Virus genome (UHGV): UHGV-0045963
Length of the DNA: 41,161 bases
DNA from: a virus
Reading direction: 5' to 3' (one strand)
Shown here: piece by piece, positions 4,119-37,360 of the stretch
Position numbering within the stretch: position 1 is the first letter of the stretch
How the letters are laid out: each line of letters opens with the position of its first letter
Program-made: the position numbers and the translations under genes
Notes under the pieces: model-generated
Seen by the model: only the letters and a program-made list of their open reading frames with translations
What the model was told of the DNA's origin: nothing
The model's database searches: none

Positions 4119-7100
4119 TTAACGTTCTTCCAGAGACTGAATCCGCTCTTTTATCTTATCCATTTCTCTGCGCTGCCATGCTGCCTCGATATAGAATAAG
4201 AGATCAGGTCTGACCCCCCATCTAGATCCTGCTGGCGTTATTTCAACGCGCTCAATGATGTCTTCCATTACCATCACTGGATTATCATCCTCATCAACAA
4301 TGATGCTCCCGTCATTATCAGTCAGCTGTATTTCCCTTTGGCCAGTAATGACGTCATCATATACTGCGGGATAATCGTCATAGCAAAGAAAGGCATAGCG
4401 GCATGTTGTGCTTTCTTCTTCCATGAGTCCGTGAGAAATAAGAACATCACGAAGTTGCTGCGCGATTACACCATGATGTATCCTCGCCCCTTCTTCTCCC
4501 TTTATAGCGACAGCGTTCAGCCATTTATAAGCGATATACCTGACGTCACCCCAGGCATCCAGCAATGCTTCGTCAGGAGAGACCGGCTCTGTCTTTAATG
4601 TTCCGTCACTGGTAACCACAGGATTGGAGCCAAGATAAACTGTCGAGAACCTGTTTCCCGGACCACCAAGAGCATTTACATTATCAAGATAAGGTTTAAC
4701 ATCTCCGTTCTCAAAAAGATGTTCGAGTGCGTTATATACCGCGCGACGTGGAGTACTGCTTCCGGAACCATGCAACGTTATCATTGCACCATCTGCTGAA
4801 GACGTTGTTTCACCGCCGCTAACGATTAATCTCTGAGCGGTAACATCATCAGACGGTACTTTCTTCGCAATAATGGCGTAATTGCCCTCCAGTTTGACTT
4901 CCGCGCGAACTTGTCCTGATGTACCTGCATGGACAGTCAGTGACTGGACGGCAACATCATCTGTGAAATCAACGGGTACAGGAACCGTCCTCACGCCGGA
5001 CGTCGACATAAAAGTAGGAAGCGTTCTGTTAGGAGTGGCTCCGTAGACAAAATCCCTTGAAACAAATTCTTCCTGTTTAATTTTCACCCTGAAACAATAC
5101 AAATCAGCCGGGTGACCATCGTGAACATAAGGATATTTTCTGTTGTTATCCCCTATGCTCCATGGGTTTAGAAAGTCTTCCCCACCGAAAATGTAGTACA
5201 GCCAGTTGTCTTTGATACAAACTGAACCAACACCAACCGCAGAGTTAACTATTCCGCCCTGATAAATCTGATCAGTAACATTAACCCACTCTACATTATC
5301 CAGACTCCACTCATTGACGTTAACTCTGGTCATAAATGTTCTTGGATAATTTCCTGCATAACGGTTATCAGGTTCTCCTCCTTCCCACTCACCAAATGCG
5401 CGCTCACTGCCAAAAATAATCAGCTCATCGCCAACTTTGGCAAAAGGAAGGTTTGAGTGATGAACATTATTTGGGAAGCGAAGAGAATTCCATGATGCAC
5501 CTAAATCAGAGCTTCTGTGCAATGAACTACCGGGTTGAGTACTTAATGTCCCCCTGGTCGTCAGATACAGAATGCCATCATAATATTTTACACATGGCTC
5601 AGATGCATTCGCCTCATATTCTGCAGGTATGCGTCTGCGAACAAAGCTACCAGGAGAACCGAAAGCATCAGAGAAATAGAGTATCCCAAGCTCGCGTGGA
5701 CCAATATCACCATTATGGTAGCCAACAGCAAAACTGTTATCGCTAATCGTCGCAAAACTGTGAATCTCAGTAACAGGAGTGCTTCCGTCAACAAAAGAAG
5801 AAATAGTTCCAAGACTGGTTTTTCTCCATGGTGACGAGTGAAATGATGTACCAAAACTCCAGTATCTACCCTCGTTATTCTGATCCACATCCTGAGTATT
5901 TTGCGTCGTAACTGTAAAAGTATTTTTATCAATAACAGTAGTCACCGTCATATTCCCGGTAACACCTGTAACACCAGAGTTTGAGAAGTTGACAAAATCA
6001 CCAGCAAATAATCCGTGATCAGTAATGCGAATATAAGCGACTTGCTGATTTGCTGCTTTCGTTATACCACCATAAACGCGAAGGCTGCGACTCATTGGAC
6101 GATCCCACAACTCTGCAACCTGCAGTTTATTTCCGCGCACGGTCCGCGTCTCAATTACAGCAAAAAGGCGATTTCTGACAACCCCCATACTCATGCAGTG
6201 ATAGTTAACTGTGGGATAGTTTTCATGTAAATCTGTAAGCCATTCCGGCGTTGTCCAGGTCTTCCCGTCATCTCCTGAGCGAACCCATGCAACATGGAGG
6301 TTATTTACACCATGGCGGTCTCCAGCCATAAAAGGCGCATAGATGACATTGTCATATACAAACGTTTTATCCTGCGTCCAGGCGTTGTACCACGGTGTAT
6401 CTGTAATTTTAAATAACTCTCCCTGGATAAAATCTTCAGAAGCATAAAAAAGAGGCTGACCCGGTATTCTCTCAAATAAAAAACGAGCATTTTTAAATCG
6501 GCTGACATCCGGAAGAGTTGATACTTTAAAAGTAAGCCCTAATCCGTCAATTTTATAACCTGGAGATGAGGCTTCAAGGCACGCGCTTATTGCAGTGGAA
6601 TCGTCATTTATACCATCACCAACAGCTCCAAAATCTTTGGGGCTAATAGCATCACGCATTTTATCCTGGAACGTTCGGTATACTGCCCCAGAACCATACT
6701 GAATAAACCAACCAAAACCACCAACAACCCCGGCGATTGCAGCATCGACATAATTACGCATTGAGCGATTATTTACAGCGTCCTGTTCAAGTGATGGATC
6801 TGCAAGGTTAGAAATTCTGTTTTGCTTTGCATCGTAATATTTTGCAAGCAAAGATGGTTTCATCAATGCACGTCTGAACCATCCAAAACATTGCTGGATC
6901 AGCATCGTCAGGTAGTCAAAGGCATCTTCATGCACTTCGGGGAAAAACTTTCCCTGATTGCGAAGGTCTGTCTCCTGCACTACATCAAGCACACGATCTA
7001 TCGTAATTCTCCATCCAGTAGCAAGCGGCGACGGAAGAACCACAGAACCGCCACTATAAGTGCCCGCCCCAGTTACCGTATAACCGGTATCCAGAACCAA

Positions 7101-7238
7101 TTCTGTTACGTTCCCGTTCAGGTCAGACACCTGAACAACCAGGTCGGATTTTCTGAAAATTCGAAAAGTATACGGAAACGATGTCGTAACGCCGTTACCG
7201 GTGTATTCGTTGTGGTCAACTTCGGTTGAGACCGTCAT
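4119..7238 (-). CDS. tailspike with sialidase-like (endo-N-acetylneuraminidase-like) central domain and C-terminal intramolecular chaperone (peptidase S74-like) domain
   Basis: 1039 aa; two Asp-box motifs (SGDDGKTW, SSDLGASW); C-terminal TSDGTLK ... GVIAQQL pattern of self-cleaving chaperone domains; phage fibre-type N-terminus (TGNGVTTSFPYTF). Confidence 0.85.
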   Translation of the reverse strand: MTVSTEVDHNEYTGNGVTTSFPYTFRIFRKSDLVVQVSDLNGNVTELVLDTGYTVTGAGTYSGGSVVLPSPLATGWRITIDRVLDVVQETDLRNQGKFFPEVHEDAFDYLTMLIQQCFGWFRRALMKPSLLAKYYDAKQNRISNLADPSLEQDAVNNRSMRNYVDAAIAGVVGGFGWFIQYGSGAVYRTFQDKMRDAISPKDFGAVGDGINDDSTAISACLEASSPGYKIDGLGLTFKVSTLPDVSRFKNARFLFERIPGQPLFYASEDFIQGELFKITDTPWYNAWTQDKTFVYDNVIYAPFMAGDRHGVNNLHVAWVRSGDDGKTWTTPEWLTDLHENYPTVNYHCMSMGVVRNRLFAVIETRTVRGNKLQVAELWDRPMSRSLRVYGGITKAANQQVAYIRITDHGLFAGDFVNFSNSGVTGVTGNMTVTTVIDKNTFTVTTQNTQDVDQNNEGRYWSFGTSFHSSPWRKTSLGTISSFVDGSTPVTEIHSFATISDNSFAVGYHNGDIGPRELGILYFSDAFGSPGSFVRRRIPAEYEANASEPCVKYYDGILYLTTRGTLSTQPGSSLHRSSDLGASWNSLRFPNNVHHSNLPFAKVGDELIIFGSERAFGEWEGGEPDNRYAGNYPRTFMTRVNVNEWSLDNVEWVNVTDQIYQGGIVNSAVGVGSVCIKDNWLYYIFGGEDFLNPWSIGDNNRKYPYVHDGHPADLYCFRVKIKQEEFVSRDFVYGATPNRTLPTFMSTSGVRTVPVPVDFTDDVAVQSLTVHAGTSGQVRAEVKLEGNYAIIAKKVPSDDVTAQRLIVSGGETTSSADGAMITLHGSGSSTPRRAVYNALEHLFENGDVKPYLDNVNALGGPGNRFSTVYLGSNPVVTSDGTLKTEPVSPDEALLDAWGDVRYIAYKWLNAVAIKGEEGARIHHGVIAQQLRDVLISHGLMEEESTTCRYAFLCYDDYPAVYDDVITGQREIQLTDNDGSIIVDEDDNPVMVMEDIIERVEITPAGSRWGVRPDLLFYIEAAWQRREMDKIKERIQSLEER

Positions 7239-7341
7239 GTTAAATCTCCAGATAGTCGCAGCACCCGTTGCGCCGCATATCTGGTCATTCTATTACCTAA
7301 AAAACCACATATGGATAGAAAGACTGTGAATACGAATAGAT

Positions 7342-7358
7342 ATTACCTTTCGGGTAAT
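7342..7358. promoter_or_regulatory. 17-bp palindromic operator-like site ATTACCTTTCGGGTAAT
   Basis: Perfect inverted repeat of the ATTACC-N5-GGTAAT family; lies in the divergent region between tailspike and the LexA-box gene. Confidence 0.6.
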
Positions 7359-7394
7359 TTGCAAAACGTGCTGGATAGCAAACAAATTATTTGC

Positions 7395-7414
7395 TACTGT
7401 ATAAATATACAGTT
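7395..7414 (+). promoter_or_regulatory. LexA (SOS) box TACTGTATAAATATACAGTT
   Basis: CTGT-N8-ACAG with AT-rich centre, 18 of 20 matches to the consensus TACTGTATATATATACAGTA; ends 6 nt before the ATG at 7420. Confidence 0.7.
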
Positions 7415-7419
7415 ATTGC

Positions 7420-7692
7420 ATGGAGAATATTAAGATGCAGCAGTATCACTATCCACTGGAAGACGGATTTACCGAAAGGATTCACACGCCGGGAGGCGTC
7501 AGGTCACTGGTGGAGGGATCGCACTTGATGAAATTACTCCGGGATCTCGATAAGGATGGATTTAATGTCGATGGCCCACTTGCCGAACTGACTGCACTGA
7601 TTAACTACGTCACCAGCTCACAGATGTCTATGCAGGATCTGCAAACACATCTCGACTATTGTGCCGAACAATTACGAAAACAAACCCGGTAA
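7420..7692 (+). CDS. small antirepressor-like protein (standalone homologue of the Ant C-terminal domain); an alternative start is ATG 7435
   Basis: Residues RIHTPGGVRSLVEGSHLMKLLRDL...ELTALINYV...DLQTHLDYC align with the C-terminus of the 8843..9529 protein (LIHSPSGVLGLTENSLLMNLLNQL...ELTTMFCYI...DIQTHAEYI). Confidence 0.6.
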   Translation: MENIKMQQYHYPLEDGFTERIHTPGGVRSLVEGSHLMKLLRDLDKDGFNVDGPLAELTALINYVTSSQMSMQDLQTHLDYCAEQLRKQTR

Positions 7693-7698
7693 ATTTAA

Positions 7699-7716
7699 AG
7701 GCCGCAAGAGCGGCCT
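7699..7716. terminator. hairpin shared by the convergent genes 7420..7692 and 7715..8443
   Basis: AGGCCGC AAGA GCGGCCT stem-loop; overlaps the stop codon of the minus-strand gene. Confidence 0.45.
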
Positions 7717-8443
7717 ATCGTTTCGCTTTGTGCTCATCCCAGCACGTTTTGCACCATGCCATTAAGCCGTCCGCATTTTGATTATTAGGGTAAAAGCTGG
7801 TTCGTTTTCTGCGGACATTACAAATTGGGCACCACTTCATATGGCGTGTATTCTTTGGGCCATCGAGACACCTTGCACACCACTTAGTCAATCCATCTGG
7901 ATTTTTTGACGATTTCCTGAATTTTTCATATGGAAGGTTTATTCTGCATCGCAAGCACTGCTTGCTACCACTTGAAACTCTGTTAGCTGATTCTTCTTTT
8001 GGCGGCGATACAGAAGGTATTCTTGCTGGCTCTGATACTGCCTGAGGTGCTTTTTTAGATGACTGAGACGATATGTCATCACCAGGGAATCTTCCATGAT
8101 ATGCCGGACGCGTTGACACTCCAGGTGGAAGCTCAGCTGTAAACGGCTTTGGCTGAATCAGTTGCCTCTCTTTTGCTAACTCCTGCTGTTTATAATATGT
8201 CTGGATTACCGCACTATCATAAGCAGGAGGTGCGGAAATATTAGGCGCATTACCTCCAGTTTTTTGAAACTGAGTAGAGGTGTGTTCTATCACCTGTGTA
8301 CGATTAATCGTTATCTCCCCATCTTCGGTCTTTATCGTTTTGTTATGATTAACGACCGTACGATCAGAGATCTTAGTCTTGTTCTGGTTGATAACGTAAA
8401 TAATCACCGCAACCACACCAACAACTATCCAGAAAACTTCCAT
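7715..8443 (-). CDS. membrane-anchored protein with C-terminal tandem Cys4 zinc-ribbon-like repeats, unknown function
   Basis: N-terminal TM (VFWIVVGVVAVIIYVI), Ser/Pro/Gln-rich linker, two repeats C-x2-C ... WC-x-x-C (CLRCR...WCARC; CPICN...WCKTC); RBS GAGGAAAAGCA. Confidence 0.6.
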   Translation of the reverse strand: MEVFWIVVGVVAVIIYVINQNKTKISDRTVVNHNKTIKTEDGEITINRTQVIEHTSTQFQKTGGNAPNISAPPAYDSAVIQTYYKQQELAKERQLIQPKPFTAELPPGVSTRPAYHGRFPGDDISSQSSKKAPQAVSEPARIPSVSPPKEESANRVSSGSKQCLRCRINLPYEKFRKSSKNPDGLTKWCARCLDGPKNTRHMKWCPICNVRRKRTSFYPNNQNADGLMAWCKTCWDEHKAKR

Positions 8444-8462: not shown

Positions 8463-8479
8463 ATTACCTTAAAGGTAAT
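8463..8479. promoter_or_regulatory. operator-like palindrome ATTACCTTAAAGGTAAT
   Basis: Perfect 17-bp inverted repeat between divergent genes 7715..8443 and ant. Confidence 0.6.
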
Positions 8480-8555
8480 ATCTTGCTTTCAGGTGATCAA
8501 GCGTTAAACGCAATCAACCAAATACGGTTGATTTTTATATTTATCAGCGTTTATC

Positions 8556-8572
8556 ATTACCTTTGCGGTAAA
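8556..8572. promoter_or_regulatory. operator-like palindrome ATTACCTTTGCGGTAAA
   Basis: Second copy 93 bp from the first, upstream of the ant leader. Confidence 0.55.
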
Positions 8573-8662
8573 TTTACATCGCACTCCTCTTGTGCCATAG
8601 TAATCGAGCACTGGCAAAATCCAGTGCCGGGATTTGCACCCCGGATTACTAAAAGGCGCATA

Positions 8663-8684
8663 CCACGCCAGACGTGGTTTTTTT
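8663..8684 (+). terminator. intrinsic terminator inside the ant leader
   Basis: Stem CCACG / CGTGG with loop CCAGA followed by T7; about 160 nt upstream of the ant ATG. Confidence 0.55.
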
Positions 8685-8842
8685 ATGCGTATAGCACAGT
8701 CATGCCAGAATTATGGTGGGACGTGCAGGGGCACCGAAAGGTGCGCCGGGTCCTTTTAGCCGGTAGTGCAAACCCTGTACGTCTCACCACCAACGAGATT
8801 TGCACCTCAGGTGGTGATTAACCATACTAAAAGGTGATTGCC

Positions 8843-9529
8843 ATGACTGCTAACGTAACCCCATCTGTTTTTCATTTTGAATCAGAAGCAACCATTCGAG
8901 CCATTGTTATTGATGGAAATCCTTGGTTTGTTGCCAAAGACGTTATTAAAGCTCTTCAACTGACAAACCCCACCATGTCAATCAAATCTCTTGATGATGA
9001 TGAAAGGGCTAAATTTAACTTAGGTCGTCAAGGCGAAACCAATATTATCAGCGAGTCAGGCCTCTACACACTGATCCTCCGCTGCCGCGATGCGGTGACA
9101 CCAGGCACTATCCCCTACCGCTTTCGTAAATGGGTTACAGGTGAGGTTCTTCCTCAGATCCGCCGCACCGGAAGTTACATTAAAAACTCGCTCCCGCAGG
9201 AAGAACGCATAAAGATGGTTGCCGACCAGGTAGCCAACGCCACAGCATCAGCAGTGATGCAGGCGATGAAGATAGAGAACAAAACCTACAGTGCCCCACT
9301 GAAGCCCGGCTACCGCAGCCTGATTCACTCGCCGTCTGGTGTTCTCGGCCTGACGGAGAACTCACTGCTGATGAATCTGTTGAACCAGTTACAGGAAGAC
9401 GGGCACGACGTATCGGGCGCGGCGGCGGAGCTGACCACCATGTTCTGCTACATCGTCGGTGTGAGCAAATGCCTGCGTGATATCCAGACTCACGCGGAGT
9501 ACATCAACGACAAAGCAGGATTCTTCTGA
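8843..9529 (+). CDS. antirepressor (Bro-N/Ant-type N-terminal domain plus C-terminal domain shared with 7420..7692)
   Basis: N-terminal Bro-N-like sequence (FHFESEATIRAIVIDGNPWFVAKDV...); RBS AAGGTG 6 nt before ATG 8843; the track start at 8834 is GTG. Confidence 0.75.
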   Translation: MTANVTPSVFHFESEATIRAIVIDGNPWFVAKDVIKALQLTNPTMSIKSLDDDERAKFNLGRQGETNIISESGLYTLILRCRDAVTPGTIPYRFRKWVTGEVLPQIRRTGSYIKNSLPQEERIKMVADQVANATASAVMQAMKIENKTYSAPLKPGYRSLIHSPSGVLGLTENSLLMNLLNQLQEDGHDVSGAAAELTTMFCYIVGVSKCLRDIQTHAEYINDKAGFF

Positions 9530-27034: not shown

Positions 27035-27123
27035 ATCAATGACTCCGTACGCAATTAAATTATTACCAATTTAACCACATATGATTTATTTATCGTAGAA
27101 GGTTGACATTTAACGCGTTAATT

Positions 27124-27140
27124 ATTACCTTTCAGGTAAC
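27124..27140. promoter_or_regulatory. operator-like palindrome ATTACCTTTCAGGTAAC
   Basis: Same family; preceded by TTGACA (27103..27108); in the intergenic region between the portal operon and the plus-strand tRNA unit. Confidence 0.55.
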
Positions 27141-27461: not shown

Positions 27462-27538
27462 GTGGCATTAGCTCAGTTGGACAGAGCAACCGCCTTCTAA
27501 GCGGTTGGTCGCAGGTTCGAATCCTGCATGCCACGCCA
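27462..27538 (+). tRNA. tRNA-Arg (anticodon UCU, decodes AGA)
   Basis: Hand-folded cloverleaf: 7-bp acceptor stem GTGGCAT/ATGCCAC, D-stem GCTC/GAGC, anticodon stem ACCGC/GCGGT with loop CTTCTAA, T-arm GCAGG-TTCGAAT-CCTGC, discriminator G and encoded CCA. Confidence 0.9.
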
Positions 27539-33738: not shown

Positions 33739-34086
33739 TCAGAACTCTTCGATGTTCCAGCCACCACCTGCTTTCTTTGGCTTAACCGTTACCCCGATGA
33801 TTCGGAACGGATACTGATCTGCGGCGACTTTGGTTTTCACTCTGGCGTCATCGGTCCAGAATCCCCCTTTCACTTCGTGCAGTTCCATCTCGCCGGTGGC
33901 GAGCATCACAGCAAAATCTGGCGTATAGAACGTGTTGTCAGCTAACCGCAGCTTGATACCCTCAAATCGATACCAGACGATTTCTCCTGCACGTTTACGC
34001 AGCTCAAGGTGCTGGCAATACGCAGATTCTGTTTTGTTCATCTGGCCTGTTTTGAGTCGACCAAGAGCCTGCATCTGTTTTCTCAT
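33739..34086 (-). CDS. putative PD-(D/E)XK-type nuclease (VRR-NUC/DUF1064-like)
   Basis: Motifs TPDF ... ELHEVKG consistent with a PD-(D/E)XK core; first gene after the terminator that follows the P-like gene. Confidence 0.5.
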   Translation of the reverse strand: MRKQMQALGRLKTGQMNKTESAYCQHLELRKRAGEIVWYRFEGIKLRLADNTFYTPDFAVMLATGEMELHEVKGGFWTDDARVKTKVAADQYPFRIIGVTVKPKKAGGGWNIEEF

Positions 34087-34088
34087 GA

Positions 34089-34105
34089 TTTACCCCTTAG
34101 GTAAT
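34089..34105. promoter_or_regulatory. operator-like palindrome TTTACCCCTTAGGTAAT
   Basis: TTACC-N5-GGTAA directly upstream of the 34086 start codon. Confidence 0.5.
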
Positions 34106-34150
34106 TAAAAACCACATAAGACACGAAATCAATAGATTTTAGAATATTTT

Positions 34151-34167
34151 ATTACCTCTAAGGTAAT
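34151..34167. promoter_or_regulatory. operator-like palindrome ATTACCTCTAAGGTAAT
   Basis: Perfect inverted repeat 46 bp from the previous site. Confidence 0.6.
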
Positions 34168-36570: not shown

Positions 36571-36587
36571 TTTACCTGTTGGGTAAT
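36571..36587. promoter_or_regulatory. operator-like site TTTACCTGTTGGGTAAT in the cro/cI divergent region
   Basis: TTACC-N5-GGTAA; additional half-sites GGTAAC (36534..36539) and GTTACC (36554..36559) nearby. Confidence 0.55.
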
Positions 36588-36641: not shown

Positions 36642-37226
36642 ATGAAAAGTATCCAGGACGTCCGCAGGCAAAATCTCAACGACTTGATCGACCGTGAATT
36701 CAATGGTGTTCAGACGCGGATGGCAGAAAAACTTGGAACTCAGGCAAATCTGGTAAACCGCTGGGCTCTTGGCAAGAAGGTTATCGGCGACCAGGTTGCA
36801 CGAAAAATTGAAGCTGCCGCCAATAAACCCCGTAACTGGCTTGATATTGATCGTTCGCTTTCTCAGGAGGGTTTTCAGCCTGTCGGCCCGAGCGATATAG
36901 GTCAGCTGGCGGCTCACAACCTGGAACGCTGGATGAGCGAAAGCCGCGACCTTTCAACACAGGGAAAACTTCACCGCGCATCCGGCGTCGCCCAGGTGAC
37001 AATCAGCCGCCTGTTAAACAATGAGGTCAGCGTTTCCATTTCCACTCTGGAGAATGTTGCATCCGCATTCGGGCGTCACGGATATGAACTACTGATTCAC
37101 CCGCACGACCCTGCGACTATCAACTATGACCGCTCACGCTACGCATTGTTACCCGAAACCGAGAAAGCAAAGATCGAAAGTTACATTGAATTTGTCATCA
37201 ACCAGAACGAAAAAAGCAAACAATAA
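36642..37226 (+). CDS. CI-like repressor with two XRE-type HTH regions and no recognisable LexA-like autocleavage domain
   Basis: 194 aa; HTH-like segments near residues 25-45 and 115-135; no Ala-Gly/Cys-Gly plus Ser/Lys S24 motifs seen; no SD sequence before the ATG; followed by a terminator and OL-like operators. Confidence 0.65.
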   Translation: MKSIQDVRRQNLNDLIDREFNGVQTRMAEKLGTQANLVNRWALGKKVIGDQVARKIEAAANKPRNWLDIDRSLSQEGFQPVGPSDIGQLAAHNLERWMSESRDLSTQGKLHRASGVAQVTISRLLNNEVSVSISTLENVASAFGRHGYELLIHPHDPATINYDRSRYALLPETEKAKIESYIEFVINQNEKSKQ

Positions 37227-37269: not shown

Positions 37270-37282
37270 ATTGCCAGATAGA

Positions 37283-37299
37283 TTACCTTACGGGTAATT
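37283..37299. promoter_or_regulatory. operator-like palindrome ATTACCTTACGGGTAAT (OL-like)
   Basis: Perfect inverted repeat just after the repressor terminator. Confidence 0.6.
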
Positions 37300-37343
37300 T
37301 TTTTAACTCATATCTATTGACACCAAACCAAATAAGCATAATT

Positions 37344-37360
37344 ATTACCTCAACGGTAAC
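37344..37360. promoter_or_regulatory. operator-like palindrome ATTACCTCAACGGTAAC overlapping a pL-like promoter
   Basis: TTGACA at 37317..37322, a -10-like CATAATTAT about 15 nt downstream, operator overlapping and just downstream; precedes the leftward early genes. Confidence 0.6.

What the first reader, a model, noticed from the sequence alone, without database searches (positions are those of the whole stretch)
7342..7692. Near-consensus LexA box directly upstream of a standalone antirepressor-domain gene
TACTGTATAAATATACAGTT (7395..7414) is an almost perfect SOS box and ends 6 nt before the ATG of the 7420..7692 ORF. That ORF's product aligns with the C-terminal domain of the Bro-N antirepressor at 8843..9529. 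The CI-like repressor (36642..37226) has two HTH regions but no recognisable S24 autocleavage motifs. Together this suggests SOS induction by LexA-derepressed antirepressor expression rather than RecA-stimulated repressor cleavage, as described for some Gifsy-type and 186/N15-type phages. A phage operator copy (7342..7358) sits 37 bp upstream of the LexA box, so this promoter may integrate host and phage control.
Basis: partly seen in the sequence, partly recalled or inferred. Interest (0 to 1): 0.65.

Follow-up and report, generated by a model that had tools for sequence, protein, structure and literature searches.

The report
LexA-controlled antirepressor of an epsilon15-like phage
This is the E. 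coli version of an already studied phage switch, in which DNA damage removes the host LexA protein from a small phage gene whose product then disables the phage repressor; it is real and well conserved, but not new.

Summary
TACTGTATAAATATACAGTT (7395-7414) is the only sequence in the window within 3 mismatches of the 20-nt LexA consensus; no shuffle produced one. It lies just upstream of a small gene. That gene's product is 40% identical (E 8e-16) to the C-terminus of the Bro-N protein at 8843-9529. The 194-aa repressor has two HTH regions and no S24 peptidase domain.

The window is a Uetakevirus (epsilon15/phiV10-like). The small protein is 88% identical to Ant of Salmonella phage SPC32H (PDB 5D50 chain E, E 4e-47). 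The repressor matches SPC32H Rep over its full length (5D50 chain A, E 3.5e-42). That is the published LexA-Ant-Rep switch of Kim and Ryu 2013 and Kim et al. 2016.

Two corrections:
- The true start is ATG 7435 (85 aa, GGAG at 7422-7425), not 7420.
- The upstream operator palindrome (7342-7358) is real and conserved in 16 of 17 related loci (one substitution in phiV10). It also belongs to a motif arrangement that faces the divergent tailspike gene, so dual control of ant is unproven.

A side finding: the Bro-N/Ant-like gene sits behind isrK and C4 antisense RNA elements, a layout like P1 immI.

Interest is low.

The parts
7395..7414 (.). LexA (SOS) box TACTGTATAAATATACAGTT
   Evidence: 18 of 20 positions match the consensus, and it is the only such site in the window with 0 of 100 shuffles giving one. 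It is present at a fixed distance from the ant ATG in 17 of 17 related loci.
7372..7400 (+). Candidate ant promoter: -35 TGGATA (7372-7377), a 17-nt spacer, and an extended -10 TGcTACTGT (7392-7400) that overlaps the left half of the LexA box
   Evidence: This is inference. CTGGA and T.TG.TA are invariant in all 17 loci. The simple sigma-70 scan did not report it. An alternative is TTGCAA 7359-7364, 17 nt, ACAAAT, whose -10 is not conserved.
7422..7425 (+). Shine-Dalgarno GGAG, 9 nt before ATG 7435
   Evidence: GGAG is present before the ant ATG in 16 of the 17 related loci; the Erwinia dacicola prophage L012 reads GGAA.
7435..7692 (+). ant: an 85-aa antirepressor, ortholog of SPC32H Ant
   Evidence: tblastn gives 88% identity to the KC911856 gene annotated 'ant: anti-repressor protein'. 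It matches PDB 5D50 chain E at E 4.1e-47 over residues 2-84. It falls in PHROG 450.
7699..7716 (.). GC-rich hairpin AGGCCGCAAGAGCGGCCT, a likely bidirectional terminator shared with the convergent gene 7715-8443
   Evidence: The terminator scan reported it on the minus strand. The equivalent position is annotated as a terminator in epsilon15.
7342..7358 (.). 17-bp operator-type palindrome ATTACC-N5-GGTAAT
   Evidence: Nine loci in the window match it against 0.07 expected. The equivalent site in the epsilon15 GenBank record is annotated 'protein_bind: repressor, lysogeny'. It lies 72-76 nt before the ant ATG in 16 of 17 loci, with one substitution in phiV10.
7287..7313 (-). Conserved tailspike-side block on the minus strand: CATATGTGGTTTTTTAGGTAATAGAAT. 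It contains an operator half-site and a -10-like TAGAAT.
   Evidence: TATTACC and ATATG.AT are invariant in 17 loci. The same operator / TATGTGGTT / half-operator or full-operator order recurs upstream of two other minus-strand genes.
36642..37226 (+). rep: a 194-aa repressor with tandem HTH domains and no S24 domain, the presumed target of Ant
   Evidence: It matches PDB 5D50 chain A at E 3.5e-42 over residues 1-190. Pfam finds HTH_3 and no peptidase S24. It is 42.7% identical to SPC32H rep and 99.5% identical to the phiV10 and ZX5 repressors.
37282..37360 (+). Early promoter beside rep: operator ATTACCTTACGGGTAAT (37282-37298), TTGACA (37318-37323), then operator ATTACCTCAACGGTAAC (37344-37360)
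   Evidence: Read directly from the sequence. It supports the palindrome being the Rep operator.
36571..36587 (.). Operator copy TTTACCTGTTGGGTAAT, 54 nt upstream of rep
8843..9529 (+). Second, larger antirepressor-type gene: Bro-N domain plus an Ant-like C-terminal domain
   Evidence: Pfam Bro-N at E 1.5e-19. The C-terminal 78 aa are 40% identical to Ant. PHROG 130 'anti-repressor Ant' and PHROG 450 both match. It is 83% identical to ZX5 ORF4 and identical over residues 80-231.
8608..8794 (+). isrK-type (8608-8684) and C4 antisense RNA (8709-8794) elements in the leader of the Bro-N/Ant-like gene
   Evidence: Both pass the Rfam gathering threshold: isrK 67.4 bits and C4 77.8 bits. Both are also present in phiV10 and ZX5. 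The C4 sequence CCTTTTAG (8752-8759) is complementary to CTAAAAGG (8827-8834) at the ribosome-binding site.
8463..8572 (.). Two operator copies (8463-8479 and 8556-8572) flanking promoter-like sites upstream of isrK/C4

Best explanation
This is the ant arm of the SPC32H-type LexA-Ant-Rep lysis-lysogeny switch of epsilon15-like (Uetakevirus) phages.

In the lysogen, host LexA sits on the SOS box (7395-7414). The box overlaps the -10 and start region of the ant promoter, so ant is silent. Rep (36642-37226) holds the phage promoters off through its ATTACC-N5-GGTAAT operators. Rep has no S24 self-cleavage domain, so RecA cannot inactivate it directly.

DNA damage makes LexA cleave itself. The 85-aa Ant (7435-7692) is then made, binds Rep and takes it off the DNA, and lytic genes are expressed.

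Shown here:
- the SOS box and its conservation;
- orthology of Ant and Rep to the SPC32H pair crystallised as a complex;
- absence of S24 in Rep;
- co-occurrence of the two genes.

Inferred from the SPC32H work, and not tested for this phage:
- LexA binding to the box;
- Ant-Rep binding;
- the exact promoter position.
For: - **Taxonomy.** The window is a Uetakevirus: the ant locus (7240-7720) is 95-98% identical to the same locus in phiV10, PAS61, ZX5 and TL-2011b.
- **Ant orthology.** Ant is 88% identical to the annotated ant gene of SPC32H and matches PDB 5D50 chain E, 'Anti-repressor protein', at E 4e-47.
- **Rep orthology.** Rep matches 5D50 chain A, 'Repressor', over residues 1-190 at E 3.5e-42.
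- **No self-cleavage domain.** No S24 hit was found in Rep.
- **SOS box statistics.** The SOS box is unique in the window, and no shuffle produced one.
- **Shared layout.** The SPC32H ant upstream region has the same order: operator, TTGCAT, SOS box, GGAG, ATG.
- **Conservation.** SOS box spacing and ATG are kept in all 17 distinct loci, and GGAG in 16 of them, with Ant identity down to about 60%.
- **Co-occurrence.** Ant was found in 35 phage records and Rep in 36. The listed rows name the same Uetakevirus-like phages, with one extra Rep-only record.
- **Literature.** LexA cleavage leads to Ant, which inactivates the repressor (PMC7380047). The Ant tetramer binds two Rep dimers and breaks the DNA-binding tetramer (PMC9638917; PMC9986798).
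Against: - Nothing was measured for this phage.
- Rep is only 43% identical to SPC32H Rep, and 47.5% identical in the C-terminal tail said to contact Ant. Ant-Rep binding is therefore extrapolated.
- The simple promoter scan found no canonical sigma-70 promoter for ant.
- The two primary papers (PMC3807360, PMC4983836) were not available to read. Details of the SPC32H experiments rest on secondary citations, PDB molecule names and GenBank annotation.
- A second antirepressor-type gene is present (8843-9529), so Ant may not be the only route to induction.
Confidence: 0.9

Rival explanations
1. Dual control: the ant promoter is repressed by both LexA and Rep through the operator at 7342-7358. 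Ant expression would then need loss of both, or Rep would tune or boost Ant output as positive feedback once some Rep is removed.
For: - The operator is exact, and its family is far above chance.
- It abuts a -35-like TTGCAA and keeps a fixed distance to the SOS box and ATG in 16 of 17 loci.
- The equivalent epsilon15 site is annotated as a repressor site.
Against: - With the best-conserved promoter candidate (TGGATA, 17 nt, TGcTACTGT), the operator is centred near -57, outside the core promoter.
- The same arrangement of operator, TATGTGGTT and half-operator recurs on the minus strand upstream of two other genes that have no ant gene or SOS box. This points to control of the divergent tailspike promoter.
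- Full Rep repression of ant would block SOS induction, which contradicts the SPC32H model.
Confidence: 0.3
2. The larger Bro-N/Ant-like protein (8843-9529) is the main antirepressor of the E. coli phages, and the small LexA-controlled Ant is auxiliary or redundant.
For: - In ZX5, overexpression of ORF4 lowered lysogen counts from 10^9 to 10^6 (PMC9782041). ORF4 is identical to the window protein over residues 80-231.
- Its C-terminal domain is homologous to Ant.
Against: - SPC32H and epsilon15 contain only one Ant-like sequence each, the small ant gene (one place per record), so the Ant-like Bro-N fusion seen here is missing there.
- No SOS box lies near the fusion gene. Its leader carries C4 and isrK elements and Rep-type operators, which is the wiring of an immunity or anti-immunity module rather than a DNA-damage sensor.
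- The small ant gene and its SOS box are under strong conservation in 17 loci.
Confidence: 0.1
3. The SOS-box-like palindrome is a chance AT-rich palindrome or a promoter element with no LexA role, and the small protein does something other than antirepression.
For: - There is no direct binding data for this phage.
- Pfam has no family for the protein, and PHROG 450 is labelled 'unknown function'.
Against: - No shuffle in 100 gave a site this close to the consensus.
- The half-sites (C/A)TGT and ACAG are kept in 17 distinct sequences while the spacer and flanks vary.
- The protein is 88% identical to a protein crystallised in complex with its repressor.
Confidence: 0.03

Closest known systems
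Salmonella phage SPC32H Rep-Ant-LexA antirepression system (Kim & Ryu 2013, J Virol 87:11775; Kim et al. 2016, PNAS 113:E2480; PDB 5D4Z and 5D50)
   Same: - Same genus (Uetakevirus).
- Ant is 88% identical and of the same length.
- Same position, divergent from the tailspike gene.
- Same upstream order: operator palindrome, SOS box, GGAG, ATG.
- Rep is homologous over its full length and lacks S24.
   Different: - Rep is only 43% identical, so this may be a different immunity type.
- The E. coli phages add a second Ant-like domain fused to Bro-N behind isrK/C4 RNA elements; SPC32H and epsilon15 lack this fusion.
- The ortholog here is unannotated: it is called 'hypothetical protein' in phiV10, ZX5 and epsilon15, and in the E. 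coli genome records listed out of 529 carrying it.
Coliphage 186 Tum, N15 AntC and the Gifsy antirepressors (LexA-controlled antirepressors)
   Same: Same logic: a LexA box gates a small antirepressor that inactivates a non-cleavable repressor by protein-protein contact (PMC7380047).
   Different: No sequence relationship was detected. tblastn with Ant at E<=1e-3 hit only 35 records; all rows are Uetakevirus-like phages of Escherichia, Salmonella, Enterobacter and Klebsiella, plus one unnamed phage record. These systems are analogues, not family members.
P1/P7 immI module (c4 antisense RNA controlling ant) and the Gifsy-1 isrK locus
   Same: For the neighbouring Bro-N/Ant-like gene only. Rfam C4 and isrK matches above gathering score lie in its leader. 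A C4 segment is complementary to its ribosome-binding site.
   Different: This does not concern the LexA-controlled ant gene. An icd-like gene and RNA processing were not examined. The antirepressor here carries the SPC32H-Ant-like C-terminal domain.
Lambda CI / P22 C2 type repressors (RecA-stimulated S24 autocleavage)
   Same: Rep is an HTH repressor that maintains lysogeny.
   Different: Rep has no S24 domain. Instead it has a second HTH region and the SPC32H-type C-terminal tail.

Membership tests
SPC32H-type LexA-Ant-Rep antirepression module | Small (about 86 aa) Ant protein homologous to SPC32H Ant | tested here: met
   88% identity by tblastn. PDB 5D50_E matches at E 4.1e-47 over residues 2-84.
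SPC32H-type LexA-Ant-Rep antirepression module | Rep homolog with an N-terminal HTH, a second HTH-like domain and a C-terminal tetramerisation/Ant-binding tail, and no peptidase S24 | tested here: met
   5D50_A matches at E 3.5e-42 over residues 1-190. Pfam finds HTH_3 and no S24 at E<=1. The test is at sequence level only.
SPC32H-type LexA-Ant-Rep antirepression module | SOS box in the ant promoter region | tested here: met
   18/20 match to the consensus and unique in the window. The SPC32H sequence has the box at the same place. It is kept in 17 of 17 loci.
SPC32H-type LexA-Ant-Rep antirepression module | Synteny: ant is divergent from the tailspike gene and followed by a terminator | tested here: met
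SPC32H-type LexA-Ant-Rep antirepression module | LexA binds the box and represses ant; ant is induced by the SOS response | not testable with these tools
   Needs a gel shift or footprint and expression assays.
SPC32H-type LexA-Ant-Rep antirepression module | Ant binds Rep and releases it from operator DNA | not testable with these tools
   Supported only by homology to the 5D50 complex. The Rep C-tail is 47.5% identical.
186 Tum / N15 AntC / Gifsy antirepressor proteins | Sequence homology to Tum-type antirepressors | tested here: not met
   tblastn of Ant against 50,697 phage records at E<=1e-3 hit only Uetakevirus-like phages. No direct pairwise test against Tum was run.
186 Tum / N15 AntC / Gifsy antirepressor proteins | LexA box gating an antirepressor of a non-cleavable repressor (the functional logic) | tested here: met
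   This shows that it works like these systems, not that it is a member.
Lambda CI/LexA-type autocleaving repressors | Peptidase S24 domain with a cleavage site and Ser/Lys dyad | tested here: not met
   No S24 hit at E<=1. The whole length is accounted for by the alignment to SPC32H Rep.
P1 immI-type c4 RNA-controlled antirepressor (for gene 8843-9529 only) | C4 antisense RNA upstream of ant, in the same transcript, with complementarity to the ribosome-binding region | tested here: met
   RF01695 at 77.8 bits against a gathering score of 45. There is 8-nt complementarity to CTAAAAGG at 8827-8834; an 8-mer arose in 87 of 2000 shuffles, so this part is weak on its own.

The most novel reading that the evidence does not exclude
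E. coli Uetakeviruses may run a two-tier antirepressor circuit built from one portable Rep-binding domain. A LexA-gated stand-alone Ant would trigger induction. A second copy of the same domain, fused to a Bro-N DNA-binding domain, would be gated by Rep-type operators plus C4/isrK RNAs. That second copy would then lock the switch or act as an anti-immunity factor on superinfection. The operator next to the SOS box would tie ant and the divergent tailspike promoter into the same Rep-dependent loop.
Probability: 0.25. Interest if true: 0.4.

Novelty: already known. Interest (0 to 1): 0.15.

Why it matters
The mechanism was worked out genetically and structurally for SPC32H, a phage of the same genus, so this adds no new biology.

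The practical value is annotation:
- The ant gene is labelled 'hypothetical protein' in phiV10, epsilon15 and ZX5, and its PHROG family (450) is labelled 'unknown function'.
- The same label appears in the listed rows among the 529 of 5,426 complete E. coli genomes that carry the locus.
- A 2022 study of the near-identical phage ZX5 tested only the Bro-N protein as 'the' antirepressor, and its text never mentions SPC32H.

Recognising the LexA-gated Ant predicts that these common prophages, including those of K1 and O157 strains, are induced through LexA cleavage rather than repressor cleavage. It also predicts that lexA(Ind-) hosts or ant deletions should be non-inducible.

Tried and rejected
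- **Primary papers.** I tried to read the two primary SPC32H papers (PMC3807360, PMC4983836) and the epsilon15 genome paper (PMC2698709). None is held. Details of the LexA footprint, the transcription start and the Rep operators in SPC32H could not be checked, and I relied on secondary citations, PDB molecule names and GenBank features.
- **Promoter scan.** The consensus sigma-70 scan found no ant promoter on the + strand in 7240-7434. The promoter I propose rests on conservation only.
- **Loose SOS core.** The core CTGT-N8-ACAG with 1 mismatch is not enriched in the window. The two other exact cores (23112, 27654) have GC-rich spacers, do not come within 3 mismatches of the 20-nt consensus, and were dismissed.
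- **Pfam on Ant.** This gave only a sub-threshold DUF724 hit, which I treat as spurious.
- **ATG 7420 as the start.** Rejected: there is no Shine-Dalgarno sequence, and its frame and presence are not conserved.
- **S24 autocleavage of Rep.** Considered and rejected.
- **Membership in the Tum family.** Considered and rejected.
- **Searches not run.** I did not run the large protein database searches or structure prediction, because the PDB match at E 4e-47 already settles identity.

Full report
**What the window is.** The ant locus (7240-7720) is 95-98% identical to the same locus in Escherichia phages vB_EcoP_PAS61, ZX5, TL-2011b and phiV10. These are epsilon15-like podophages of the genus Uetakevirus. 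The 401 bases around the finding occur in 529 of 5,426 complete E. coli genomes. In every row listed they are annotated 'hypothetical protein'.

**Checking the observation.**
- The sequence TACTGTATAAATATACAGTT is at 7395-7414.
- It differs at 2 of 20 positions from the LexA consensus TACTGTATATATATACAGTA. It is the only site in the 41-kb window within 3 mismatches, and none of 100 dinucleotide-preserving shuffles gave one.
- The loose core CTGT-N8-ACAG with one mismatch is not enriched (17 found, 14.6 expected). The weight therefore rests on the full 20-mer and on conservation.
- The downstream ORF is real, but its start is misplaced. ATG 7420 has no Shine-Dalgarno sequence.
- ATG 7435 is preceded by GGAG at 7422-7425. 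It is the annotated start in phiV10 and SPC32H and matches the N-terminus of the crystallised protein.
- The upstream ATG is out of frame in SPC32H and missing in the Klebsiella phages.
- The product is therefore 85 aa (7435-7692), and the box ends 20 nt before the start.
- The similarity to the Bro-N protein is confirmed: 31 of 78 residues identical with residues 150-227, E 8e-16. Bro-N (PF02498) covers residues 21-107 of that protein.
- The 194-aa repressor shows HTH_3 at 106-147 and an HTH-type hit at 21-61. There is no peptidase S24 hit even at E<=1.
- The palindrome ATTACCTTTCGGGTAAT at 7342-7358 is exact. Nine loci in the window match it within 3 mismatches against 0.07 expected.

**What it is.**
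- The small protein is 88% identical to the gene annotated 'ant: anti-repressor protein' of Salmonella phage SPC32H. It matches PDB 5D50 chain E ('Anti-repressor protein', 86 aa) at E 4.1e-47.
- The repressor matches 5D50 chain A ('Repressor') over residues 1-190 at E 3.5e-42. It is 42.7% identical to SPC32H rep and 99.5% identical to the phiV10 and ZX5 repressors.
- By segment, identity to SPC32H Rep is 54% in the first HTH region, 33% in the second, and 47.5% in the C-terminal tail.
- The SPC32H ant upstream region has the same order of elements: ATTACCTTACAGGTAAT, TTGCAT, TACTGTATGTTTATACAGTG, GGAG, ATG.
- I aligned 9 phages and then added 8 prophages found in Citrobacter, Erwinia, Superficieibacter, Pseudocitrobacter, Scandinavium, Kluyvera and Klebsiella genomes.
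- All 17 sequences are distinct. All 17 keep an SOS box 17-20 nt before the ATG. Sixteen keep the operator 72-76 nt before it, and phiV10 has one substitution there.
- In several Klebsiella-type sequences the left half-site is ATGT instead of CTGT.
- Ant and Rep turn up in essentially the same set of phage records, 35 and 36.

**How it most likely works.**
- Secondary literature states that in these Salmonella phages LexA self-cleavage allows synthesis of an antirepressor. That protein inactivates the lytic repressor by protein-protein contact, citing Kim and Ryu 2013 (PMC7380047).
- The SPC32H Ant tetramer binds two Rep dimers and breaks the DNA-binding tetramer (PMC9638917).
- The Rep C-terminal domain mediates both tetramerisation and Ant binding (PMC9986798).
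- By orthology, the same applies here. LexA on 7395-7414 keeps ant off. DNA damage removes LexA. Ant is made and strips Rep, which cannot self-cleave, from its operators.
- The promoter is inferred. The invariant blocks CTGGA and T.TG.TA fit a -35 TGGATA (7372-7377), a 17-nt spacer and an extended -10 TGcTACTGT (7392-7400). The SOS box would then cover the -10 hexamer and the transcription start.
- The simple scan did not report this promoter. An alternative (TTGCAA 7359-7364 with ACAAAT) has a non-conserved -10.
- LexA binding, Ant-Rep binding and the transcription start were not tested for this phage.

**The operator next to the SOS box.**
- The palindrome family is very likely the Rep operator. 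Two copies bracket a consensus TTGACA promoter immediately downstream of rep (37282-37360), and one lies 54 nt upstream of rep (36571-36587).
- The epsilon15 GenBank record annotates the equivalent sites, including the one before its ant homolog gp19, as 'protein_bind: repressor, lysogeny'.
- Whether this copy controls ant is unclear. With the conserved promoter candidate it is centred near -57, outside the core promoter.
- Read on the minus strand, the intergenic region has the order: operator, about 28 nt, CATATGTGGTTTTTT, half-operator GGTAAT, TAGAAT, then the tailspike start.
- The same order (operator, 28-40 nt, TATGTGGTT, half or full operator) recurs upstream of two other minus-strand genes, those starting at 34086 and 27034. 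Neither has an ant gene or an SOS box.
- The tailspike-side blocks TATTACC and ATATG.AT are invariant in all 17 loci.
- The operator therefore belongs at least to the tailspike promoter. Dual LexA/Rep control of ant remains a possibility, not a finding.

**The second Ant-like gene.**
- The Bro-N protein (ATG 8843-9529) carries an Ant-like C-terminal domain.
- Its leader contains Rfam isrK (8608-8684, 67.4 bits) and C4 antisense RNA (8709-8794, 77.8 bits), both above the gathering score. Both are also present in phiV10 and ZX5.
- CCTTTTAG in C4 (8752-8759) is complementary to CTAAAAGG at the ribosome-binding site (8827-8834). An 8-mer match arose in 87 of 2000 shuffles, so this is only suggestive.
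- Two operator copies (8463-8479, 8556-8572) flank promoter-like sites upstream.
- This is the layout of the P1 immI (c4-ant) module; that comparison rests on my own knowledge.
- The protein is identical over residues 80-231 to ZX5 ORF4. Overexpression of ZX5 ORF4 lowered lysogen counts about 1000-fold (PMC9782041). The text of that paper never mentions SPC32H, and the small ant gene is 'hypothetical protein' in the ZX5 record.
- SPC32H and epsilon15 show only one Ant-like place per record, so they lack this fusion.

**Comparison with known systems.**
- Membership in the SPC32H-type module is met for every sequence-level criterion: the Ant ortholog, the Rep homolog without S24, the SOS box, and synteny. 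The biochemical criteria cannot be tested here.
- The 186 Tum, N15 and Gifsy antirepressors share the logic. No sequence relationship was detected, so they are analogues.
- Lambda-type autocleaving repression is excluded by the absence of S24.

**Verdict.** The system is already known from a phage of the same genus, down to a crystal structure of the Ant-Rep complex. What remains of value is a corrected start codon, an annotation gap that affects about a tenth of complete E. coli genomes, and two side observations: the ambiguous role of the operator, and the C4/isrK-gated Bro-N/Ant-like fusion. Interest is low.

Noticed in passing
window 8608-8794 and 8843-9529: Rfam isrK (8608-8684) and C4 antisense RNA (8709-8794) sit in the leader of the Bro-N/Ant-like gene. 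A C4 segment (8752-8759) is complementary to its ribosome-binding site (8827-8834), which gives a P1 immI-like layout. The same pair of RNA elements is present in phiV10 (L001 4532-4717) and ZX5 (L018 652-837).
   Followed up: partly
window 7287-7358, 34089-34167, 27040-27140 (minus strand): A recurring arrangement lies upstream of three minus-strand genes (starts at 7238, 34086 and 27034): a full operator, 28-40 nt, TATGTGGTT, then a half or full operator. It may be a Rep-controlled promoter type of these phages. The role of TATGTGGTT is unknown.
   Followed up: partly
window 7715-8443 (-): A 242-aa ORF with an N-terminal hydrophobic segment and repeated CxxC motifs. It gives weak Stc1 and endonuclease VII-like zinc-finger hits and matches PHROG 6762 (unknown function). 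It is inserted between ant and the isrK/C4 leader and is absent at this place in ZX5 and phiV10. A perfect operator (8463-8479) lies 19 nt upstream of its start.
   Followed up: no
window 7435-7692 versus 36642-37226: Ant is far more conserved than its presumed target: 88% identity to SPC32H Ant against 43% for Rep. This suggests either that Ant recognises a small conserved Rep surface and may cross-react between immunity types, or that Ant is constrained by its own tetramer.
   Followed up: partly
window 27462-27538 (+): A tRNA-Arg (anticodon TCT) on the strand opposite to the surrounding late genes. The ZX5 paper also mentions a single tRNA in that phage.
   Followed up: no
window 4119-7238 (-): A 1039-aa tailspike. 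The ZX5 paper describes the same-length (3,120-nt) ORF7 at the equivalent position in ZX5 as having an endosialidase middle domain and a C-terminal intramolecular chaperone. The ant locus is 100% identical to prophages in O2:K1:H5 APEC and other E. coli chromosomes, so this is probably a K1-capsule-specific Uetakevirus.
   Followed up: no
window 37282-37360: A near-consensus early promoter (TTGACA at 37318-37323) bracketed by two operators immediately downstream of rep. It is probably the main Rep-repressed early promoter.
   Followed up: partly
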